Virus record (IMG/VR): IMGVR_UViG_3300029305_001452
Span: 32,001-96,000 of that record
DNA length: 64,000 nt
Reading direction: 5' to 3' (one strand)
From: a virus
Lineage: Duplodnaviria; Caudoviricetes
Part shown: one piece after another, positions 51,443 through 58,779 of the stretch
Layout of the letters: every line of letters begins with the position of its first letter
How positions within the stretch are numbered: position 1 is the stretch's first letter
The notes under the pieces: model-generated
Seen by the model: only the letters and a program-made list of their open reading frames with translations
The model's database searches: none
Told to the model about the DNA's origin: nothing
Position numbers and translations under genes: made by a program

Positions 51443-51619
51443 GTAGAGAGAGTCTACTTAAAAGGTCAGCAACAAGATTGTCTGACGCAACGTTGAAACA
51501 AATAGTCCGGGCCAACTTCGGTTATTTGTGGAGTTCATTGAGGGTTTGATGCCATCCACAAGTTGGCTAGACAAAAGTCGAAAGAAAAGCATCAGTCTAC
51601 GAAACGGAGGATATTGCCT

Positions 51620-51667
51620 ATGATTGAATGCGTAAAATCCAGCAAGGAGGAAACTCCTCCAGCATAG
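51620..51667 (+). CDS. candidate 15-aa micropeptide MIECVKSSKEETPPA
   Basis: GGAGG RBS; paralog at 54836. Confidence 0.45.
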   Translation: MIECVKSSKEETPPA

Positions 51668-51709
51668 TAGCGGGTTTCGCCGTTCCCACCAAAAACGGCG
51701 AGTTAATAT

Positions 51710-52261: not shown

Positions 52262-52336
52262 AGCCCCGTGGCCAAGCGGCAAGGCGAAGGACTTTGACTC
52301 CTTTATTCACTGGTTCGAATCCAGTCGGGGCTGCCA
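52262..52336 (+). tRNA. tRNA-Gln(UUG)
   Basis: cloverleaf; CT-TTG-AC loop; CCA. Confidence 0.9.
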
Positions 52337-52340
52337 TAAC

Positions 52341-52414
52341 GGAGGATGTGGTGTAATGGTAGCACGCGAGTCTTGGGGTCTTGAAGCGCAGTTCGAATCT
52401 GACATCTTCCACCA
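52341..52414 (+). tRNA. tRNA-Pro(UGG), irregular stems
   Basis: GGAGGATG/CATCTTCC; CT-TGG-GG loop; short T stem; ACCA. Confidence 0.65.
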
Positions 52415-52525
52415 CAAAAAATAATTTGTCAAACCTCTTGACAAATCGCAAAATATATGATATAATCCAGACACTTAAAAGAAAACAACACAAAATTAAT
52501 GGATGAATGAACGAGGTGATGAAGC

Positions 52526-53329
52526 TTGATGGAATATTATACAAGCTCATCTGAACAAATTCGACAAGATACATGTGATGAGGTAGAATATGTAGAAATT
52601 AAAAATCCATTTGGTTTTATTTATATTACAACTAATTTGATAAATGGTAAAAGATATATTGGACAAAGAAAGTTTTCTGATGGGTGGACAACATATCTTG
52701 GAAGTGGAAAGAGATTTAAAACGGCTCTGAAAAAATATGGTAGAAAAAATTTTGTTAGATTAATAGTTGATATAGGCTATTCTCGTGAAGAACTAAATGA
52801 TAAAGAAATTAGTATAATAAAATTTTTAAATGCCGTTGATAGCAGAAATTTTTATAATATATCAGAAGGCGGAGAGATAAAAGGCAAAAGTGGAAAAGAT
52901 GCATACTGGTATAATAAAAAAATTCCACAAGAAAGCATAGAAAAGGCAAATTTAAAAAGATATAAACCTGTTTACCAGTTCGACTTAAATGGTAATTTTA
53001 TTAAGCGTTATGAGTCCGTAACACATGCTGCAAAAGAAAATAATCTTAGCAAACAAGGAATAAGTAAGTCGTGTAATGATGATAGTAAAACATGCGGTGG
53101 TTATTTTTGGTCATACAGTGACAATATTGGCTTAAGAAAATATGATCCTACCAAAAATCATAAACCAGATGAAGTATATCAATATGATTATGATGGTAAG
53201 AAATTAATTAATATTTATATATCTGCAAAAGAGGCAAGCGAAAAAACTGGAATAGCTACATACAATATATATGCTTGTCTTTCTGGTAAGAGAAAACATG
53301 CTGGAAATTTTACTTGGAAAAAGGAGTAA
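52526..53329 (+). CDS. free-standing GIY-YIG homing endonuclease with NUMOD1-like repeats
   Basis: FIYITTNLINGKRYIGQ, YLGSG; two VYQ(F/Y)D..G...A...C...G..W repeats. Confidence 0.85.
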   Translation: MMEYYTSSSEQIRQDTCDEVEYVEIKNPFGFIYITTNLINGKRYIGQRKFSDGWTTYLGSGKRFKTALKKYGRKNFVRLIVDIGYSREELNDKEISIIKFLNAVDSRNFYNISEGGEIKGKSGKDAYWYNKKIPQESIEKANLKRYKPVYQFDLNGNFIKRYESVTHAAKENNLSKQGISKSCNDDSKTCGGYFWSYSDNIGLRKYDPTKNHKPDEVYQYDYDGKKLINIYISAKEASEKTGIATYNIYACLSGKRKHAGNFTWKKE

Positions 53330-53336
53330 TTAAATT

Positions 53337-53993
53337 ATGAGTACAAAAGAAACATGCACTATCCACAAGGCACTTTCCGAACTGAAGACTATTGATGACC
53401 GTATCATCAAGGCCATCCGTAGTAACACCTATGTACTAGCTGTTAAGCATTCAGCAGAGAAGATTAACGGTGTGAAGGTTGACACCTGCAAGGAGAATAT
53501 GAAGAGTGGCTATCAGAAGGTTACCGACCTAATAGCTCGTCGTGTTGCAATGAAGAGAGCAGTTGTTCTTTCCAATGCAACCACTAAGGTTAAGGTTGGC
53601 AATAACGAATACACCGTGGCCGAGGCAATTGAGATGAAGAATCACGGTATGGAGTTCAAGAAGACTCTACTACAGTATCTATATACTGCATATGGTTCTG
53701 CTCAGAACGAGTTCAATAAGAACAACGATGAGGCACTTGAAAAGAAGGCAGAGCAGTATGTTCTCGCAGTGATTGCTGCACAGCCCAAGGACTCTAAGAT
53801 GTCTGTTGATAGCGAAGCAATGAAGGCACTTCGTAAGACATACATCGAGAACAACACTTATGATTTGCTTGATCCTCTGAATGTAGCTAAGATCATGGAA
53901 GAACTTGATTCTGAAATCAACGAGTTTGAAGCTGAAATTGATGCAGCACTGTCTGTTTCCAACGCACTAACTGTGATTGAGTTCGAGTATTAA
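53337..53993 (+). CDS. helical/coiled-coil protein (DIP1984/septicolysin-like)
   Basis: TIHKALSELK..D.RI, SNATT.V....YTVAEAI, EIDAALS.SNALTVIEF. Confidence 0.6.
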   Translation: MSTKETCTIHKALSELKTIDDRIIKAIRSNTYVLAVKHSAEKINGVKVDTCKENMKSGYQKVTDLIARRVAMKRAVVLSNATTKVKVGNNEYTVAEAIEMKNHGMEFKKTLLQYLYTAYGSAQNEFNKNNDEALEKKAEQYVLAVIAAQPKDSKMSVDSEAMKALRKTYIENNTYDLLDPLNVAKIMEELDSEINEFEAEIDAALSVSNALTVIEFEY

Positions 53994-54000
53994 TTAATCT

Positions 54001-54418
54001 GCTTGCTGCTTTTCGAAAACCTTAAACGACTACTTATCTCTTCTTTTTTAATCATTTAGAGTGATATTAATAAGTTAAATAAAATGATTACTAAACAACT
54101 TTATGTACTTGAAATACATAAAACTCTTTGCCTAAGGGTTATAAATAATAAAAGATATGATAAATTAAGATGATCATATAATTATTAATTAATTGTAACT
54201 GTAAAGCTTAAAGTTAAAAATTCAAGACTTAAGGTTCAAGGATCAAAGTTTTATTTTGGTCAAAGGTCGTTTATTAAAGTAGTAAAGAGGGCTAAGAAGT
54301 TATAAATAATTGAATATTATGCGGAGCCCACAAAGTTTTACAAAATCCACGGTTAAAGGTTTGGGTGAGTGGTCAAGGCCCAAAGGTGAGCCTCGTGGCT
54401 GGAAAGTAGCAAGCACCA
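54001..54418 (+). ncRNA. candidate large structured RNA
   Basis: 14-bp closing stem 54001-54014/54401-54414 followed by ACCA; internal stems; seven heptamer repeats. Confidence 0.55.
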
Positions 54419-54549
54419 GATAAAAATAATAAATGTTGAGTAGTGAGTATAAAGCCATATTGAGTATGCCACAACGTACAAACTCAAGAAAACAGTGAAG
54501 AGCTGGATAACCTTCTGTACAAAGGTTGAATTGAGAGTGGCAGAGTTTA

Positions 54550-54625
54550 GTCCAAAGATGGTGTAAGGGTAGCACACAGAAGGGTAGGCCGGCGAGGTAC
54601 TGTTCGAATCAGTTGAGGGCGACCA
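54550..54625 (+). pseudogene. degenerate tRNA
   Basis: D arm GTGT/GCAC, T arm ACTG-TTCGAAT-CAGT and ACCA end retained; acceptor and anticodon stems broken. Confidence 0.5.
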
Positions 54626-54835
54626 AAAAGAAAACTCTTAAAAGTACAGAGATATGAAAAAACGATGTAACAAATGAGAACTTGGTCGGTAGAGATTAAT
54701 GATTAAAGATAGACCGTTGGTGAGTCATGCGCAGACAAATCCAACCATCGTTCCCATAGATGAAATTTCTATGGCTCAATGAATTACAAATAACATACGA
54801 AAGTGTGTTAAATAATCCAAAGGAGGACTTTGCCT

Positions 54836-54883
54836 ATGATTGCATTCGCTAAATCCACCTCGGAGGATACTCCAATCGGCTGA
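54836..54883 (+). CDS. candidate 15-aa micropeptide MIAFAKSTSEDTPIG
   Basis: AAGGAGG RBS; paralog at 51620. Confidence 0.45.
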   Translation: MIAFAKSTSEDTPIG

Positions 54884-54922
54884 TTGGGTTCCTGGGGCAA
54901 GAACTGAAACTGCCCCTCATAT

Positions 54923-55000
54923 TGCGGAGTAGACAAGAGGTCTAAGTCGCCAGCCTCATAAGCTGGAAATCGTTGGTTCGAATCCAACCTCACGCAACCA
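54923..55000 (+). tRNA. tRNA-Met(CAU), initiator-like
   Basis: CCAGC-CTCATAA-GCTGG; bulged acceptor; ACCA. Confidence 0.8.
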
Positions 55001-55003
55001 CAT

Positions 55004-55093
55004 GCCGCAGTGGTGGAATAGGTAGACACCCGGGACTTAAAATCCCGTGAGGCTAAACCCCTCGTACCGGTTCGACCCCGGTCTGCGGCACCA
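55004..55093 (+). tRNA. tRNA-Leu(UAA)
   Basis: class II cloverleaf; CT-TAA-AA loop; ACCA. Confidence 0.92.
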
Positions 55094-55147
55094 CCTGAAC
55101 AAATGGCATCGTGTTATGTGTGGCTGACCAACCTTAAGGTCATATAT

Positions 55148-55223
55148 GCCCCAGTAGCTCAACTGGCAGAGTACTTGATTTGTAATCAAGATGTTGCAGG
55201 TTCAACTCCTGTCTGGGGCTCCA
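55148..55223 (+). tRNA. tRNA-Thr(UGU)
   Basis: cloverleaf; TT-TGT-AA loop; TCCA. Confidence 0.92.
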
Positions 55224-55348
55224 TACTAAAAACAAATCCTGTCGGCAACACTAGAATTATAAATAAGCTAAAGTGCAAGGTTCATGCCCTAGAAAATTAA
55301 ATATAGCTACTAGACAGCATGCCACATCCCGTGCTTCTGTCACTATAA

Positions 55349-55379
55349 GGCACCGGGCAAAACTCGGTGCTATTTTTTT
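55349..55379 (+). terminator. terminator of the tRNA region
   Basis: GCACCGGG-CAAAA-CTCGGTGC plus T7. Confidence 0.75.
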
Positions 55380-55461
55380 ACAATTTAGGCCTTGACAAAC
55401 TTAAATTAATGCGTTATATTAACAGTACAAAATTAATATTAAATAAAGGAGACATAATTAA

Positions 55462-57894
55462 ATGACAGAAAAGATTACAATGATAGAACTCTTCTCTGGT
55501 GTTGGAGCACAGGAAAGAGCACTACGGCAACTTAACATTCCATATGAGGTGACTCATACTTGTGATCTAGACAAAGATGCGGTTCTTAGTTATGCTGCAA
55601 TGAGAACCGACTTTGAAAATGAATTTAACTCTTATAATTTCCCATCCGTAGAAGATATGATTTCAGAATTGCAGAGTAAAAATGTTGGCTATGACTTTAT
55701 GAAGGGCAAGCACACCATTACAACTCGTACATCTGTTAACAAGTTGAAGCAATATTATCTTGCGGATAAATTATCCAAAAATCTTGGAGATATCGGAAAG
55801 ATTGAAAGACTTCCTTATGCTGATATGGTTACTTACTCTTTCCCTTGTACTGATTTATCCGTGGCTGGCAAGGGTGAGGGTATGCAGAACAAGTGTGAAT
55901 CTTGTGGTCATTCTTGGCCTATTGACTTTAGTAGTTCCGAAGAGGTACTAGTCTGCCCTAATTGTGGTGAAAATGTGTCTTCTAGCACTCGTTCTGGTTT
56001 GCTAGGGCAGGTTCAGAGACTTCTATCTGTTGCTTATGAGAATAACGAATTGCCTAAGTATCTTCTTCTTGAGAATGTAAAGAATCTTGTTGGCAAGAAA
56101 TTTGTTAATCAGTTCGATGCTTGGGTTAAGTGGCTTGACGGCATTGGTTATAATACATATTATCAAGTACTTAATGCGAAGCACTACGGTATCCCTCAGA
56201 ATCGTGAGCGTATCTTTGCACTTTCTATTCGTAAGGACATTGATAATGGTGAATTTAAGTTCCCAAATAAAATTCCTCTTAATATTCGCTTAAAGAATAT
56301 TCTGGAAAAGAATGTTGATGAGAAGTATTATTTACCAGATGAGCGTATTGATAAAATTCTAAACTCAACATTTATTCAAGAAAAGAAACGTATTCAAATG
56401 AAGGATGTGTGCGATACACTTCTTGCACGAGACTGGAAAGATCCTAAGTGCGTACAGGTGGAAGGCGATACAAGTCCTATTAGGTTAGGTAATATTTATG
56501 ATGAGAAGTTTGGCACCGGTTATGCTGGAAATGTATGGGATAAAAATGGCATATCTCCAACTCTTCAGACGGCACAAGGCGGCAATAGACAGCCGTTGGT
56601 TATTGACGAAGTCAAAGTAGAGCCGTTCATCGTAGCTTCTCGTGGTAGAAATCCAGACAATCCTTCTGATAGAACTACTGGAGCGCCCACAGAGCAAAGA
56701 CTTGAGCCGAATTTTAGTGGTTGCACAAATACTCTTACATCCGTGCAAAAGGATAATTATGTTGCAGAACCTCAGGTGCTTCGTGCTGAAAGAACTGAAT
56801 ACGGTAAGGCCATTCGTAAGCAATATGAATCTGGAGAAGTCTATGAAAAGATTAGCAATATGAGAGAATTGACTCCTCGGACAGATGGTGTTAGTAATAC
56901 TATTACCACCTTATTAAAGGACAACTATGTTTATGAGCCTCAAGTTAAGAATGTAGGTAATATTTATCCGTCTAATGGTCAGAATGGTAATATTTATGAT
57001 ATTGACGGTATTAGCCCAACTATCAATGCGGGTACTGGTGTTAAGGGTTGTGGCATTGGTAGCAATAATGCTCCTAAGGTCATCGTGCCAGAATTATTAA
57101 ATGGCAATTGTGCATATGAGCCACAGATGGTTATTGGAAGTATGCAAGCAAATTCATATATTGGTGATTGTAGCATTAGTCCATCTCTTACAGCTGCCAT
57201 GGGAATGGGTGGCGGTCAGATACCTATGGTTGGTTATGTTACAAAAGATCCTATTATATACGATGATTATAATAGTCGTATTAGTTCTGACCAGGATGCT
57301 ATCAACACACTTACTACCAACTGCGGTGCATCTGCTGAAAGAAATGGCGTTAAGATTATTGAACCGATTGTTTGTGAAGAGCGTAGGGATGAGGGTATCC
57401 GTTTCTTTAAGGACGATTGTGTTGGCACACTAAGAACTATTGATGCATGTGGTGACAAAAGAGTTCTTGAGCCTGAGCCTCAACTAGAGTTTGTTGGTGG
57501 ATTGGGTGAAAAGGATTGGGTTAAAGACGGTAAAATGTTAAGTCGTAACTACCCTCAAGGCTCCAGTGTTTATTCCTCTGATGGAATCGCCTCTGCGTTA
57601 ACTGCACAAGGTGTTGGTGGAGCTGGTGGTTATAGTGGATTATATACGGTAGAGGAAGAGCCTAAAAATATTAAGTGGCGCATTCGTAAGCTTACCCCTA
57701 AGGAGTGTTGGCGTTTAATGGGCTTTACAGATGAAGACCACGATAGAGCGTCAAAATATGTAAGTGCCTCTTCTCTATATAAGCAAGCTGGTAATTCTAT
57801 TTGTACTTGTTGCCTAATTGCAATTTTTAATGCGCTATTCCTACACGATTACAGTACTTCTTATTGTGATAAGCTAGTAGATTATAATTCTTAA
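55462..57894 (+). CDS. DNA (cytosine-5) methyltransferase, multispecific type
   Basis: ELFSGVG, FPC, ENV, QNRER, RKLTPKEC and QAGNS motifs; very long variable region with repeated TRD-like units. Confidence 0.92.
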   Translation: MTEKITMIELFSGVGAQERALRQLNIPYEVTHTCDLDKDAVLSYAAMRTDFENEFNSYNFPSVEDMISELQSKNVGYDFMKGKHTITTRTSVNKLKQYYLADKLSKNLGDIGKIERLPYADMVTYSFPCTDLSVAGKGEGMQNKCESCGHSWPIDFSSSEEVLVCPNCGENVSSSTRSGLLGQVQRLLSVAYENNELPKYLLLENVKNLVGKKFVNQFDAWVKWLDGIGYNTYYQVLNAKHYGIPQNRERIFALSIRKDIDNGEFKFPNKIPLNIRLKNILEKNVDEKYYLPDERIDKILNSTFIQEKKRIQMKDVCDTLLARDWKDPKCVQVEGDTSPIRLGNIYDEKFGTGYAGNVWDKNGISPTLQTAQGGNRQPLVIDEVKVEPFIVASRGRNPDNPSDRTTGAPTEQRLEPNFSGCTNTLTSVQKDNYVAEPQVLRAERTEYGKAIRKQYESGEVYEKISNMRELTPRTDGVSNTITTLLKDNYVYEPQVKNVGNIYPSNGQNGNIYDIDGISPTINAGTGVKGCGIGSNNAPKVIVPELLNGNCAYEPQMVIGSMQANSYIGDCSISPSLTAAMGMGGGQIPMVGYVTKDPIIYDDYNSRISSDQDAINTLTTNCGASAERNGVKIIEPIVCEERRDEGIRFFKDDCVGTLRTIDACGDKRVLEPEPQLEFVGGLGEKDWVKDGKMLSRNYPQGSSVYSSDGIASALTAQGVGGAGGYSGLYTVEEEPKNIKWRIRKLTPKECWRLMGFTDEDHDRASKYVSASSLYKQAGNSICTCCLIAIFNALFLHDYSTSYCDKLVDYNS

Positions 57895-57918: not shown

Positions 57919-58779
57919 ATGAAAATTTTAAGTTTATGTGACGGGATATCTTGTTGTCATATTGCACTTGATAGAGCGGGCATTACTGTAAAAGAATACT
58001 ATGCAGCAGAAATCAAAGAAATTGGAATTAGAGTAACAAAAGATAATTATCCTGACACTATCCATATTGGTGATGTGAATAAAATTAGTTATAGAGACGG
58101 TGTGTTATACACAGAGAATGGCAATTATAATGTTGGTCATATTGACCTTGTCGCTTTCGGAAGTCCATGTCAGAGCTTCTCACAGGCTATGAAGACTCAT
58201 ATGAGAGTTGGTCTAGAAGATAAAACGCGGTCTGGTCTGTTCCTAGAGTGCTACAGAATTCTCAAGGAAGTCAATCCTACATATTTCTTAATGGAAAATG
58301 TGGCAAGCATGAAGCAAGAAGATAAAGATTTTATTTCTAAGCTTATGGGTGTTGAGCCTATTCGTATTAATAGTAAGCTTGTTGGACCAGCGCTTAGAGA
58401 TAGATTGTATTGGACAAACATTCCTAATGTAACTCAGCCCAAGGATAAGAAAATTACTCTACAAAGTATTCTTACTAGTGGTTATACAGACAGAGAAAAG
58501 GCGCGAGCGTTGCTTGTTAGTGATAGCCGTCCGTTGACAGATAAGAAAAGAATGATGCACAGATACCGTGATACTGGCTTTACAACCATTATTTGGGAAG
58601 AAAAGGGTAACGACGATTCTATTCGGTATATGAATCAGATAGAGCTTGAGAGATGTCAAAATGTCCCTGAAGGCTATACAAAATGTCTAACAAGAAATGA
58701 GGCGGCAAATGTTCTTGGTGATGGTTGGAGTGTCGATGTAATCGCGCATATTTTTAAAAATTTAACAACACAAAATTAA
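57919..58779 (+). CDS. DNA (cytosine-5) methyltransferase
   Basis: SLCDG, GSPCQSFS, MENV, RDRLYW and LGDGW motifs. Confidence 0.88.
   Translation: MKILSLCDGISCCHIALDRAGITVKEYYAAEIKEIGIRVTKDNYPDTIHIGDVNKISYRDGVLYTENGNYNVGHIDLVAFGSPCQSFSQAMKTHMRVGLEDKTRSGLFLECYRILKEVNPTYFLMENVASMKQEDKDFISKLMGVEPIRINSKLVGPALRDRLYWTNIPNVTQPKDKKITLQSILTSGYTDREKARALLVSDSRPLTDKKRMMHRYRDTGFTTIIWEEKGNDDSIRYMNQIELERCQNVPEGYTKCLTRNEAANVLGDGWSVDVIAHIFKNLTTQN

What the first reader, a model, noticed from the sequence alone, without database searches (positions are those of the whole stretch)
53337..54418. Helical protein gene followed by a ~420-nt RNA with heptamer repeats and a tRNA-like ACCA end: candidate ribonucleoprotein system
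Seen: 7 nt after the stop codon, GCTTGCTGCTTTTC (54001) pairs with GGAAAGTAGCAAGC (54401), which is followed by ACCA. Inside are seven contiguous 7-nt units (CTGTAAA GCTTAAA GTTAAAA ATTCAAG ACTTAAG GTTCAAG GATCAAA, 54199-54247) and nested stems CCACGG/TCGTGG and TTTGGG/CCCAAA, with no credible sense ORF. Inference: an ncRNA matured like a tRNA, whose periodic repeats are bound by an oligomer of the upstream DIP1984-like protein (as TRAP binds repeats) or serve as a template. I know of no named system with this layout.
Basis: partly seen in the sequence, partly recalled or inferred. Interest (0 to 1): 0.75.

Follow-up and report, generated by a model that had tools for sequence, protein, structure and literature searches.

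The report
Phage heptad-repeat RNA with partner protein
Right behind a small helical-protein gene this phage encodes a real, knotted non-coding RNA of about 412 bases that carries a row of 7-base repeats; the same gene-plus-RNA pair is found in hundreds of phages including the classic phage T5, only its first 86 bases are catalogued, and nobody knows what it does.

Summary
Every stated sequence feature is at its coordinates. The closing stem, the nested 3' stems and a 5' pseudoknot stem show strong compensatory change: 35 pairs, 97.6% paired, 19 with double changes, 0 of 500 shuffles as good.

The ~412-nt RNA (54002-54413) follows a 218-aa protein gene in 43 of 43 related viral contigs. It also follows it in 12 named phages of different families (T5, PVP-SE1, Bacillus PK16, Lactococcus AM2, Erwinia RAY and others) and in 3 of 4 distant metagenome contigs.

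The layout is constant: a closing helix, a pseudoknot in most lineages, a variable region, a 7-nt-periodic single-stranded array, and a three-helix 3' hairpin.

The first ~90 nt are a divergent relative of the orphan Rfam motif RAGATH-27, so that motif is only the 5' fifth of a larger RNA.

The ACCA end is not conserved, so the tRNA-like maturation idea fails.

The protein has a DIP1984-like fold (3kdq, Z 11.1) and is predicted to dimerise.

My best reading is a co-transcribed ribonucleoprotein in which protein copies bind the heptads. Binding is inferred, not shown.

This scan found the same module before in at least 11 other genomes.

The parts
52438..52466 (+). Candidate operon promoter (TTGACA-17-TATAAT, extended TG)
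   Evidence: 12 of 12 consensus match. It is the only perfect site in 52300-55500. That it drives the module is inferred.
52526..53329 (+). GIY-YIG/NUMOD homing endonuclease gene inserted directly upstream of the partner gene
   Evidence: Pfam NUMOD1 (5.8e-16) and SegE_GIY-YIG (7e-10). Only 7 nt separate it from the partner gene's ATG. It replaces the leader seen in relatives.
53337..53993 (+). Partner protein gene, 218 aa, T5.085 / phrog_1491 family, with a DIP1984-like helical bundle
   Evidence: phrog_1491 at 3e-53. 741 phage records hold a homologue. AF2 pLDDT 95.7. 3kdq at Z 11.1. Homodimer ipSAE 0.67 against a best control of 0.01.
54002..54015 (+). P1 closing helix, 5' strand (can extend to 54000)
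   Evidence: Pairs with 54400-54413. There are 14 pairs, 6 of them with changes on both sides. It is the best long-range helix.
54016..54036 (+). Conserved junction J1 (AAAACCUUAAACGA...)
   Evidence: Nearly invariant in alignment A1. It is part of the RAGATH-27-like match at 54002-54090.
54037..54089 (+). H-type pseudoknot. S1 is 54037-42 with 54059-64, S2 is 54050-55 with 54084-89, and the A-rich loop 3 is 54065-83.
   Evidence: S1 has 3 of 5 pairs with double changes. S2 compensation is seen by eye in A1 and A6. A script found the same topology in T5, Kamaji, Dulem39, L013, L035, L038 and L040.
54090..54198 (+). Variable region with lineage-specific AU-rich hairpins
   Evidence: It does not align between lineages and carries length differences. 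This is the site of tRNA-like inserts in other lineages.
54199..54247 (+). Seven contiguous 7-nt units (consensus N-Y-U-N-A-A-R)
   Evidence: No consensus pairing falls in these columns. The periodicity is kept in 10 of 13 lineages.
54248..54288 (+). Short AU hairpin, then three further YAAAG units (looser continuation of the array)
   Evidence: Relatives L012, L037 and L040 carry a GC-rich hairpin at this point.
54289..54329 (+). Helix GGGC/GCCC (54289-92 with 54326-29) enclosing a variable loop
   Evidence: helix 3: 94.7% paired, 2 pairs with double changes.
54330..54346 (+). Conserved single-stranded linker ACAAAGUUUUACAAAAU
   Evidence: Near-invariant columns in A3. The AAAUCC motif is also kept in the named phages.
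54347..54398 (+). 3' domain: three stacked helices (54347-51/54394-98, 54357-59/54391-93, 54363-66/54378-81)
   Evidence: 12 pairs, 96.9% paired, 8 with double changes, 0 of 500 shuffles. Model R1 finds it at the expected place in Dulem39, PK16, Jenst, the Clostridioides phage and AM2.
54400..54413 (+). P1 closing helix, 3' strand (can extend to 54415)
   Evidence: It is always preceded by GGCUG.
54415..54418 (+). ACCA. It is not conserved and is not treated as a functional part.
   Evidence: homologues have unrelated letters here.
54923..55223 (+). tRNA-Met, tRNA-Leu and tRNA-Thr, downstream in the same predicted transcript
55349..55371 (+). First intrinsic-terminator-like site after the module
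   Evidence: 9-bp stem with 6 GC pairs, followed by a T run.

Best explanation
The 218-aa gene and the ~412-nt RNA behind it form one inherited module.

They are transcribed together with the downstream tRNAs. A promoter-like site lies at 52438 and a terminator-like site at 55349. The RNA is then cut out of this transcript.

The RNA folds into a closed body. P1 joins its ends, a 5' H-type pseudoknot and a 3' three-helix hairpin flank it, and the body displays a single-stranded array of about 7-10 seven-nucleotide units.

I propose that copies of the upstream protein, a DIP1984-like helical bundle predicted to dimerise, bind these units one per heptad. That would give a defined ribonucleoprotein. 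In many lineages the same protein may also bind heptad-like units on its own ribosome-binding site and limit its own synthesis.

The particle is an accessory function of the early/tRNA region of large virulent phages, not needed for growth on a laboratory host.

What is shown:
- The RNA structure.
- Its conservation.
- The fixed gene-RNA order.
- The periodic array.
- The protein fold.

What is inferred:
- Co-transcription and processing.
- Direct protein-RNA binding and its stoichiometry.
- Autoregulation.
- Any cellular role.
For: The RNA is real.
- 35 pairs are 97.6% paired and 19 show double changes; 0 of 500 shuffles matched this.
- The 3' domain alone gives 0 of 500.

The pair is inherited as a unit.
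- The element follows the gene in 43 of 43 IMG/VR loci.
- It follows it in 12 named phages of unrelated families. The same closing-helix position and junction letters recur while the helix sequences differ completely.
- It follows it in 3 of 4 distant metagenome contigs.
- The stop-to-P1 distance is 5-90 nt, with no room for a promoter in most lineages.

Homology across families.
- The 3'-domain model R1 hits the expected place at E 9e-8 to 4e-4 in five families. It is also the best hit in the locus for T5, Kamaji and PVP-SE1.

The heptad array.
- The period is kept in 10 of 13 lineages, although the unit's letters drift between lineages. That pattern fits a co-evolving phage partner.

The protein.
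- The homodimer scores ipSAE 0.67 against a best control of 0.01. That mark was reached by 20 of 30 proteins solved as pairs and by 1 of 23 solved as single chains. Runs agree in at least 97% of contacts and pLDDT is at least 88.
- A conserved basic belt comprises K17, R22, K37, K42, R68, R69, K73 and K101.

The gene's own leader.
- Leaders of the partner gene share more 6-mers with their own array than other genes' leaders do: mean 3.1 against 1.2, Mann-Whitney p 1.5e-4.

Dispensability.
- A T5.085 knock-down is 'Not Fit' in the T5 CRISPRi-ART screen (PMC11879866, supplementary file 16).
Against: - No binding, expression or end-mapping data exist.
- The protein family is mildly acidic (median pI 5.8). 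It has no known RNA-binding fold, and the function of DIP1984/DUF6847 is unknown.
- The most conserved residues (two SNAxT motifs at helix ends) may be structural.
- The leader enrichment is seen in only about 40% of lineages, and the loci are related to one another.
- In this window the leader is replaced by a homing-endonuclease gene, so autoregulation cannot be read here.
- One distant contig (L058) has a tmRNA gene after the protein gene and ends before any element could be seen.
Confidence: 0.5

Rival explanations
1. The RNA works without the neighbouring protein. It would be a large ornate phage RNA like ROOL or GOLLD. Its heptad array would either build tertiary or multimer contacts, or soak up a host RNA-binding factor or ribonuclease. 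The upstream protein would be only a co-inherited helper or an unrelated neighbour.
For: - The setting in a phage tRNA cluster is the same as described for GOLLD and ROOL (PMC5737381).
- The core of the unit (U-A-A-A/G) is similar in phages of very different hosts.
- The protein is acidic and has no RNA-binding fold.
Against: - Fixed order, strand and near-abutting distance are kept across phage families that share little else.
- The Rfam models of GOLLD and ROOL give no match at E up to 10.
- The unit's letters differ between lineages that infect related hosts, and one lineage is U-rich.
Confidence: 0.25
2. It is a cis-acting 3' untranslated element. It would control stability or translation of the upstream mRNA, or the processing of the downstream tRNAs, and would not be a free RNA.
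For: - It starts 7 nt after the stop codon, so a terminating ribosome would unzip P1.
- It lies between a gene and tRNAs in one predicted transcript.
- In PK16, AM2 and Cody it is followed directly by an intrinsic terminator.
Against: - Its size of 300-450 nt, the pseudoknot, the periodic array and a conserved multi-helix domain far exceed what known 3' stabilisers need.
- The context after it varies (tRNA, promoter, terminator or ORF) while the element stays the same.
Confidence: 0.12
3. It is a tRNA-like or tmRNA-like RNA that is matured to a CCA end, and possibly aminoacylated.
For: - ACCA follows the closing helix in this window.
- The tRNA neighbourhood.
- tRNA-like inserts occur in the variable region of some relatives.
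Against: - ACCA is absent in homologues.
- ARAGORN and the Rfam tRNA and tmRNA models find nothing in 54000-54420.
- There is no T-arm next to the closing helix.
Confidence: 0.03
4. The heptads serve as a template for a polymerase, or the region acts as DNA (an origin or iteron array).
For: Only the short tandem repeats and the AT-rich composition.
Against: - No reverse transcriptase or other polymerase gene is linked in any locus.
- Long-range compensatory changes across 400 nt, always on the transcribed strand and including conserved G-U pairs, fit RNA and not duplex DNA.
Confidence: 0.03

Closest known systems
RAGATH-27 RNA motif (Rfam RF03100; orphan candidate sRNA of 86 positions. Its origin in the Breaker-lab surveys is from my memory.)
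   Same: - The first ~90 nt of the window's RNA match it at 45.5 bits, E 1e-4.
- In Dulem virus 39 the first 84 nt of the homologous element, directly after the homologous gene, reach 77.2 bits against a threshold of 76.1.
- The motif's 'unpaired' 5' half is the P1 5' strand plus the junction. Its hairpin is S2 of the pseudoknot.
   Different: - The catalogued motif covers about a fifth of the RNA.
- It lacks the closing helix partner, the pseudoknot pairing, the heptad array and the 3' domain.
- No partner protein is recorded, as far as I could find.
- The window's copy is below the family's threshold.
GOLLD and ROOL large ornate RNAs
   Same: They are large, highly structured, phage-associated RNAs that often sit beside tRNA genes, with function unknown (PMC5737381).
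   Different: - There is no match to either Rfam model.
- This RNA is smaller.
- It has a periodic single-stranded array and an obligate neighbouring protein gene.
TRAP, HutP and T4 gp32 operator systems (proteins that bind evenly spaced short RNA units; from general knowledge)
   Same: - Evenly spaced short units in single-stranded RNA.
- A possible second site on the regulator's own ribosome-binding region.
- A pseudoknot followed by UUAAA-type repeats recalls the T4 gene 32 operator.
   Different: - The protein fold is unrelated: a helical bundle, not a beta ring or an OB fold.
- The array lies downstream of the gene inside a closed structured RNA.
- No binding has been shown.
Bacterial Y RNAs (YrlA) with Rsr/Ro60
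   Same: - The 5' and 3' ends pair in a closing stem.
- In Erwinia phage RAY the variable region carries a YrlA-like tRNA mimic at 44.5 bits.
   Different: - That score is below the YrlA threshold of 69, and the insert is absent from this window.
- The partner is a 218-aa helical protein, not Ro60.
DIP1984 / DUF6847 (PF20935) proteins; structure 3kdq
   Same: - It is the best structural match by a clear margin: Z 11.1, with 151 of 152 residues aligned.
- ESM Atlas neighbours carry PF20935.
   Different: - There is no sequence-level match for the window's protein.
- This protein is 218 aa against about 150 aa.
- The function of that family is also unknown.

Membership tests
RAGATH-27 (RF03100) | Score at or above the curated gathering threshold (76.1 bits) | tested here: not met
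   The window at 54002-54090 scores 45.5 bits, E 1e-4. A homologous element in Dulem virus 39 scores 77.2 bits. The window's RNA is therefore a divergent relative, not a threshold-passing member.
RAGATH-27 (RF03100) | Conserved 5' stretch followed by a hairpin with a UAGA...AAA loop | tested here: met
   The alignment covers model positions 1-86. The hairpin is AAUCAU/AUGAUU with a UUAGAGUGAU...AAAUAAA loop.
tRNA / tmRNA-like RNA | Acceptor stem with a conserved 3' (N)CCA, a T-arm, and detection by ARAGORN or Rfam | tested here: not met
   No gene is called in 54000-54420. ACCA is not conserved.
GOLLD / ROOL | Match to the Rfam covariance models | tested here: not met
   No match at E up to 10 in 53900-55000, nor at the gathering threshold in the whole window.
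YrlA / Y RNA | Match to RF02553, a tRNA-like module, and a neighbouring rsr gene | tested here: not met
   There is no match in the window. Only phage RAY's copy has a partial match, 44.5 bits against a threshold of 69. I did not look for an rsr gene.
DIP1984 / DUF6847 (PF20935) | Pfam match above the gathering score (27 bits) | tested here: not met
   The window protein has no hit at E up to 10. The PVP-SE1 homologue scores 12 bits, E 0.2.
DIP1984 / DUF6847 (PF20935) | Same fold as 3kdq | tested here: inconclusive
   - VIA-align gives Z 11.1, rmsd 7.9 Å and 151 residues aligned; the next hit is 7.5.
- Foldseek gives probability 0.99 and E 0.018.
- The tool notes that helical bundles can reach such Z values by arrangement alone.
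Type III toxin-antitoxin (ToxIN-like) | Repeats of about 36 nt upstream of an endoribonuclease toxin gene, separated from it by a terminator | tested here: not met
   Here the units are 7 nt long and lie downstream of the gene inside a closed RNA. The protein has no ToxN-like match.
TRAP-like repeat-binding regulators | An 11-mer beta-sandwich ring protein binding (G/U)AG triplets | tested here: not met
   The protein is an all-helical bundle with a small beta cap. The units are N-Y-U-N-A-A-R at period 7. This is an analogy of mechanism only.

The most novel reading that the evidence does not exclude
The T5.085-family protein and the heptad-repeat RNA assemble into a previously undescribed kind of phage ribonucleoprotein. 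A closed, pseudoknotted scaffold RNA would carry a fixed number of protein copies, one per 7-nt unit. The protein would limit its own synthesis through heptads on its own ribosome-binding site. Some lineages would add tRNA-like cargo modules. The particle would serve an accessory role tied to tRNA or RNA biology during infection, for example as a decoy or counter-defence against host RNA-targeting systems.
Probability: 0.4. Interest if true: 0.85.

Novelty: new variant of a known kind. Interest (0 to 1): 0.72.

Why it matters
The module is present but unannotated in phage T5, one of the oldest model phages. The T5 copy matches 444 phage records, 438 of them over at least 80% of its length and with almost no annotation under the match. 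It is also present in rV5-like, Bastille-like, 949-like, Otagovirus, Vibrio and jumbo phages, and in thousands of gut-phage contigs.

This work turns an 86-nt orphan Rfam motif into a full-length RNA class of 300-450 nt with a defined architecture and a candidate protein partner. The question 'what is RAGATH-27 for?' becomes directly testable in a tractable system.

If the protein does bind the heptads, this would be a new way of building a defined RNA-protein particle. It would also be a new player in the poorly understood tRNA and early regions of large phages, where counter-defence functions are being found.

Tried and rejected
- **Rfam.** At the gathering threshold Rfam finds nothing in the element. 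It is not a tmRNA, GOLLD, ROOL or a riboswitch.
- **Protein sequence searches.** Pfam, NCBIfam and the PDB sequence searches name no family. The 'tail fiber' label of phrog_1491 and of T5.085 looks like a propagated error. The gene sits in the early/tRNA region, and from memory it is not among the T5 virion proteins.
- **5'-domain model R2.** It was built from close relatives only and proved too narrow. It reached only the gut-phage lineages and Dulem39.
- **Pseudoknot script.** It recovered the expected topology in 7 of 17 elements. In AU-rich or differently spaced cases, the window included, it picked other pairings. For the window the pseudoknot rests on alignment covariation for S1 and on compensation seen by eye for S2. 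PK16, Jenst, AM2, UNO and the Clostridioides phage do not clearly show it.
- **Closing helices.** Those of UNO, Cody and JSF12 are interrupted and are not individually better than shuffles.
- **Profile-based locus search.** The search with the protein alignment failed for lack of a conserved stretch.
- **Viral fold library.** It was not available.
- **Literature.** Searches found no paper on RAGATH-27, T5.085 or DUF6847 function.
- **Second pseudoknot.** A possible pairing of J1 AAACC (54017-21) with GGUUU (54358-62) could not be tested. Both sides are invariant in the close set, and it overlaps a covarying helix.

Full report
**1. The observation.**

The window is part of a 140-kb virus record. 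Its genes lie on the + strand and it carries two tRNA arrays.

The ORF 53337-53993 encodes 218 aa. Seven nucleotides after its stop codon, GCUUGCUGCUUUUC (54001-14) is complementary to GGAAAGUAGCAAGC (54401-14), which is followed by ACCA. The seven heptamers occupy 54199-54247. The nested stems lie at 54347-52/54393-98 and 54360-65/54379-84. No + strand ORF of 40 aa or more lies in 53994-54922.

- The 425-nt stretch folds with a z-score of -3.3.
- The closing helix is the best long-range helix in the 520 nt after the stop, matched in 1 of 100 shuffles.
- Lag-7 self-identity reaches 0.62, matched in 0 of 200 shuffles.

**2. It is a conserved structured RNA.**

The protein recruited 43 IMG/VR loci, mostly from 130-170-kb phages. 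BLAST and motif searches found the element directly after the stop in 41 of them. In the other two, L038 and L039, a small lipoprotein-like ORF is inserted first and the element follows it.

On an alignment of 19 distinct elements (A1), RNAalifold predicts 35 pairs, 19 of them with compensatory changes. Counted explicitly:

- 97.6% of cells are paired.
- 103 cells are changed on both sides.
- The covariation score is 0.425 against 0.131 for shuffles, and 0 of 500 shuffles matched it.
- Slid controls pair at 38-44%.

In the closing helix P1 the four inner pairs take three to five pair types each. The outer UUGCUGC/GUAGCAA, with a conserved G-U pair, is kept at the sequence level.

The 3' domain alone (A3) has 12 pairs, 96.9% paired, 8 with double changes, and 0 of 500 shuffles as good.

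S1 (54037-42 with 54059-64) lies in the loop of hairpin S2 (54050-55 with 54084-89). Together they form an H-type pseudoknot with an A-rich third loop. S1 covaries. S2 is compensated in A1 and A6 (AAUCAU/AUGAUU, CCAC/GUGG, GGUUAC/GUAAC, AUGU/ACAU, GACCGA/UUGGUC).

The heptad columns carry no consensus pairs.

The ACCA is not conserved. ARAGORN and Rfam find no tRNA or tmRNA here.

**3. The family reaches far beyond this phage.**

The protein matches phrog_1491 at 3e-53. It has 3216 relatives among 90%-identity clusters, 2277 among 50%-identity clusters, and 741 phage records.

These include T5 (T5.085), PVP-SE1 gp082, Bacillus PK16 and Bcp1, Pseudomonas Otagovirus, Vibrio Cody and JSF12, Lactococcus AM2, Erwinia jumbo phage RAY, Brevibacillus Jenst, Serratia Kamaji, a Clostridioides phage and Dulem virus 39.

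In all 12 named loci fetched, the gene is followed by 300-500 nt that carry no annotation or only tiny 'hypothetical' ORFs.

A blind search for the best long-range helix puts a 12-23-bp helix at the same relative place in 10 of these 12. It lies just after the stop, and its 3' strand follows GGC-UG. The helix sequences are unrelated between lineages. None of 100 shuffles matched it for T5, PVP-SE1, RAY, Jenst, Kamaji and the Clostridioides phage. AM2, PK16 and Dulem39 gave 4, 6 and 10 of 100. In UNO it is the second-best helix. In Cody it is interrupted and was seen only by eye.

The 3'-domain model R1, built only from gut-phage copies, hits the expected place in five other phages:

| Phage | E-value |
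|---|---|
| Dulem39 | 9e-8 |
| PK16 | 4e-6 |
| Jenst | 4e-5 |
| Clostridioides phage | 2e-4 |
| AM2 | 4e-4 |

With filters off it is also the best hit in the locus for T5, Kamaji and PVP-SE1.

The pseudoknot topology with a UAAAUAA-type loop recurs in T5, Kamaji, Dulem39 and four gut lineages by script. By eye it recurs in PVP-SE1, Cody, JSF12 and RAY.

The 7-nt period is the strongest lag in 10 of 13 lineages.

The T5 copy matches 444 phage records, 438 of them over at least 80% of its length and nearly all with 'none' annotated. Between T5 and Kamaji, P1, S2 and an inner 3' helix are fully compensated.

Three of four distant metagenome contigs also carry the element.

**4. Relation to what is catalogued.**

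The only Rfam match is RAGATH-27, at 45.5 bits in the window. It reaches 77.2 bits, above the threshold, on the first 84 nt of the Dulem39 element. RAGATH-27 is therefore the 5' fifth of this RNA class.

I found no paper on its function.

**5. The protein.**

The AlphaFold2 model (pLDDT 95.7) is a long helical bundle with a small beta cap. The best structural match is 3kdq:

- Z 11.1, against 7.5 for the next hit.
- 151 of 152 residues aligned.
- rmsd 7.9 Å.

Foldseek gives probability 0.99. ESM Atlas neighbours carry DUF6847. That 3kdq is DIP1984 is from my memory.

No sequence family matches.

A homodimer is predicted with ipSAE 0.67 against a best control of 0.01. That mark was reached by 20 of 30 proteins solved as pairs and by 1 of 23 solved as single chains. 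Runs agree in at least 97% of contacts and pLDDT is at least 88.

The family is mildly acidic but keeps a basic belt.

In the T5 CRISPRi-ART screen the gene is 'Not Fit' and is listed as unknown (PMC11879866, supplementary files 8 and 16).

**6. How it most likely works.**

A perfect promoter lies at 52438-66. The first terminator-like site is at 55349-71, beyond the three tRNAs. This suggests one transcript holding the homing endonuclease gene, the partner gene, the RNA and the tRNAs, from which the RNA is cut.

Three points favour a dedicated protein-RNA particle with protein copies on the array:

- The fixed gene-RNA unit across unrelated phages.
- A single-stranded array whose period is constant while its letters drift.
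- A predicted oligomer.

In many lineages 2-3 heptad-like units abut the gene's Shine-Dalgarno sequence. Leaders of the partner gene share more 6-mers with their own array than other leaders do: mean 3.1 against 1.2, p 1.5e-4, and four or more shared 6-mers in 37.5% against 7.8%. This fits autoregulation.

In this window the leader is replaced by a GIY-YIG gene.

Binding itself is untested, and I put the whole reading at about 0.5. The rivals are an RNA acting alone or as a sponge, a cis 3' element, a tRNA-like RNA, and a template or DNA element.

**7. Novelty.**

The RNA is a divergent member of a class of which only a fragment is catalogued. As far as I could find, its full architecture, its obligate partner gene and its presence in T5 are not described.

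The scan found the same module in at least 11 other genomes, with the same conclusion. I reached mine before reading those notes, apart from the leader test.

Noticed in passing
window 51488-51597: A drum RNA (Rfam RF02958, 69 bits against a threshold of 43) sits inside the first tRNA array. It is another orphan phage RNA motif.
   Followed up: no
window 54416-54815: About 400 nt of extra non-coding spacer lie between the RNA and the tRNAs. Relatives L002, L005 and L006 lack it. It has no match in the phage collection, and its fold z-score is -2.7 with 0 of 100 shuffles as stable.
   Followed up: partly
window 54810-54922: This stretch before tRNA-Met, with GGAGG and a short ORF, is conserved in L002, L005 and L006 at 81-90% identity. 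First readers of this scan noted a 15-codon micro-ORF here, with a paralogue near 51606-51702.
   Followed up: no
window 52526-53329: A GIY-YIG/NUMOD homing endonuclease gene is inserted 7 nt upstream of the partner gene. L001 has the same insertion. Relatives without it have a leader carrying heptad-like units there.
   Followed up: partly
L051 2253-2316 (Erwinia phage RAY); L060 about 2025-2085 and L061 (metagenome): tRNA-like modules sit inside the variable region of the homologous RNA. RAY has a YrlA-like permuted tRNA mimic (44.5 bits, below the threshold of 69). L060 and L061 have an anticodon arm plus a T-arm. L060 and L061 also have U-rich heptads (UUGUUUA).
   Followed up: partly
L054 1843-1920 and 2378-2652 (Brevibacillus phage Jenst): A skipping-rope RNA (67.6 bits) lies between the partner gene and the heptad-repeat RNA. 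A BsrG-like RNA (119 bits) lies just after the heptad-repeat RNA.
   Followed up: no
L038 1957-2366 and 200-329; L058 about 770-975: Phage-encoded tmRNA genes lie near the module. L038 also has a sub-threshold RAGATH-36 match (58 bits against 70). In L058 the tmRNA directly follows the partner gene and the contig ends there.
   Followed up: no
L044 / NC_005859 43141-43505 (phage T5): The T5 record annotates eight 'stable RNAs of unknown function' in the tRNA region, but not this one. The 363-nt gap after T5.085 is blank in nearly all of the 444 matching phage records.
   Followed up: yes
window 55462-57894: An 810-aa C5 cytosine methyltransferase has a very long insert between its catalytic motifs. 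It is followed by a second, 286-aa methyltransferase at 57919-58779.
   Followed up: no
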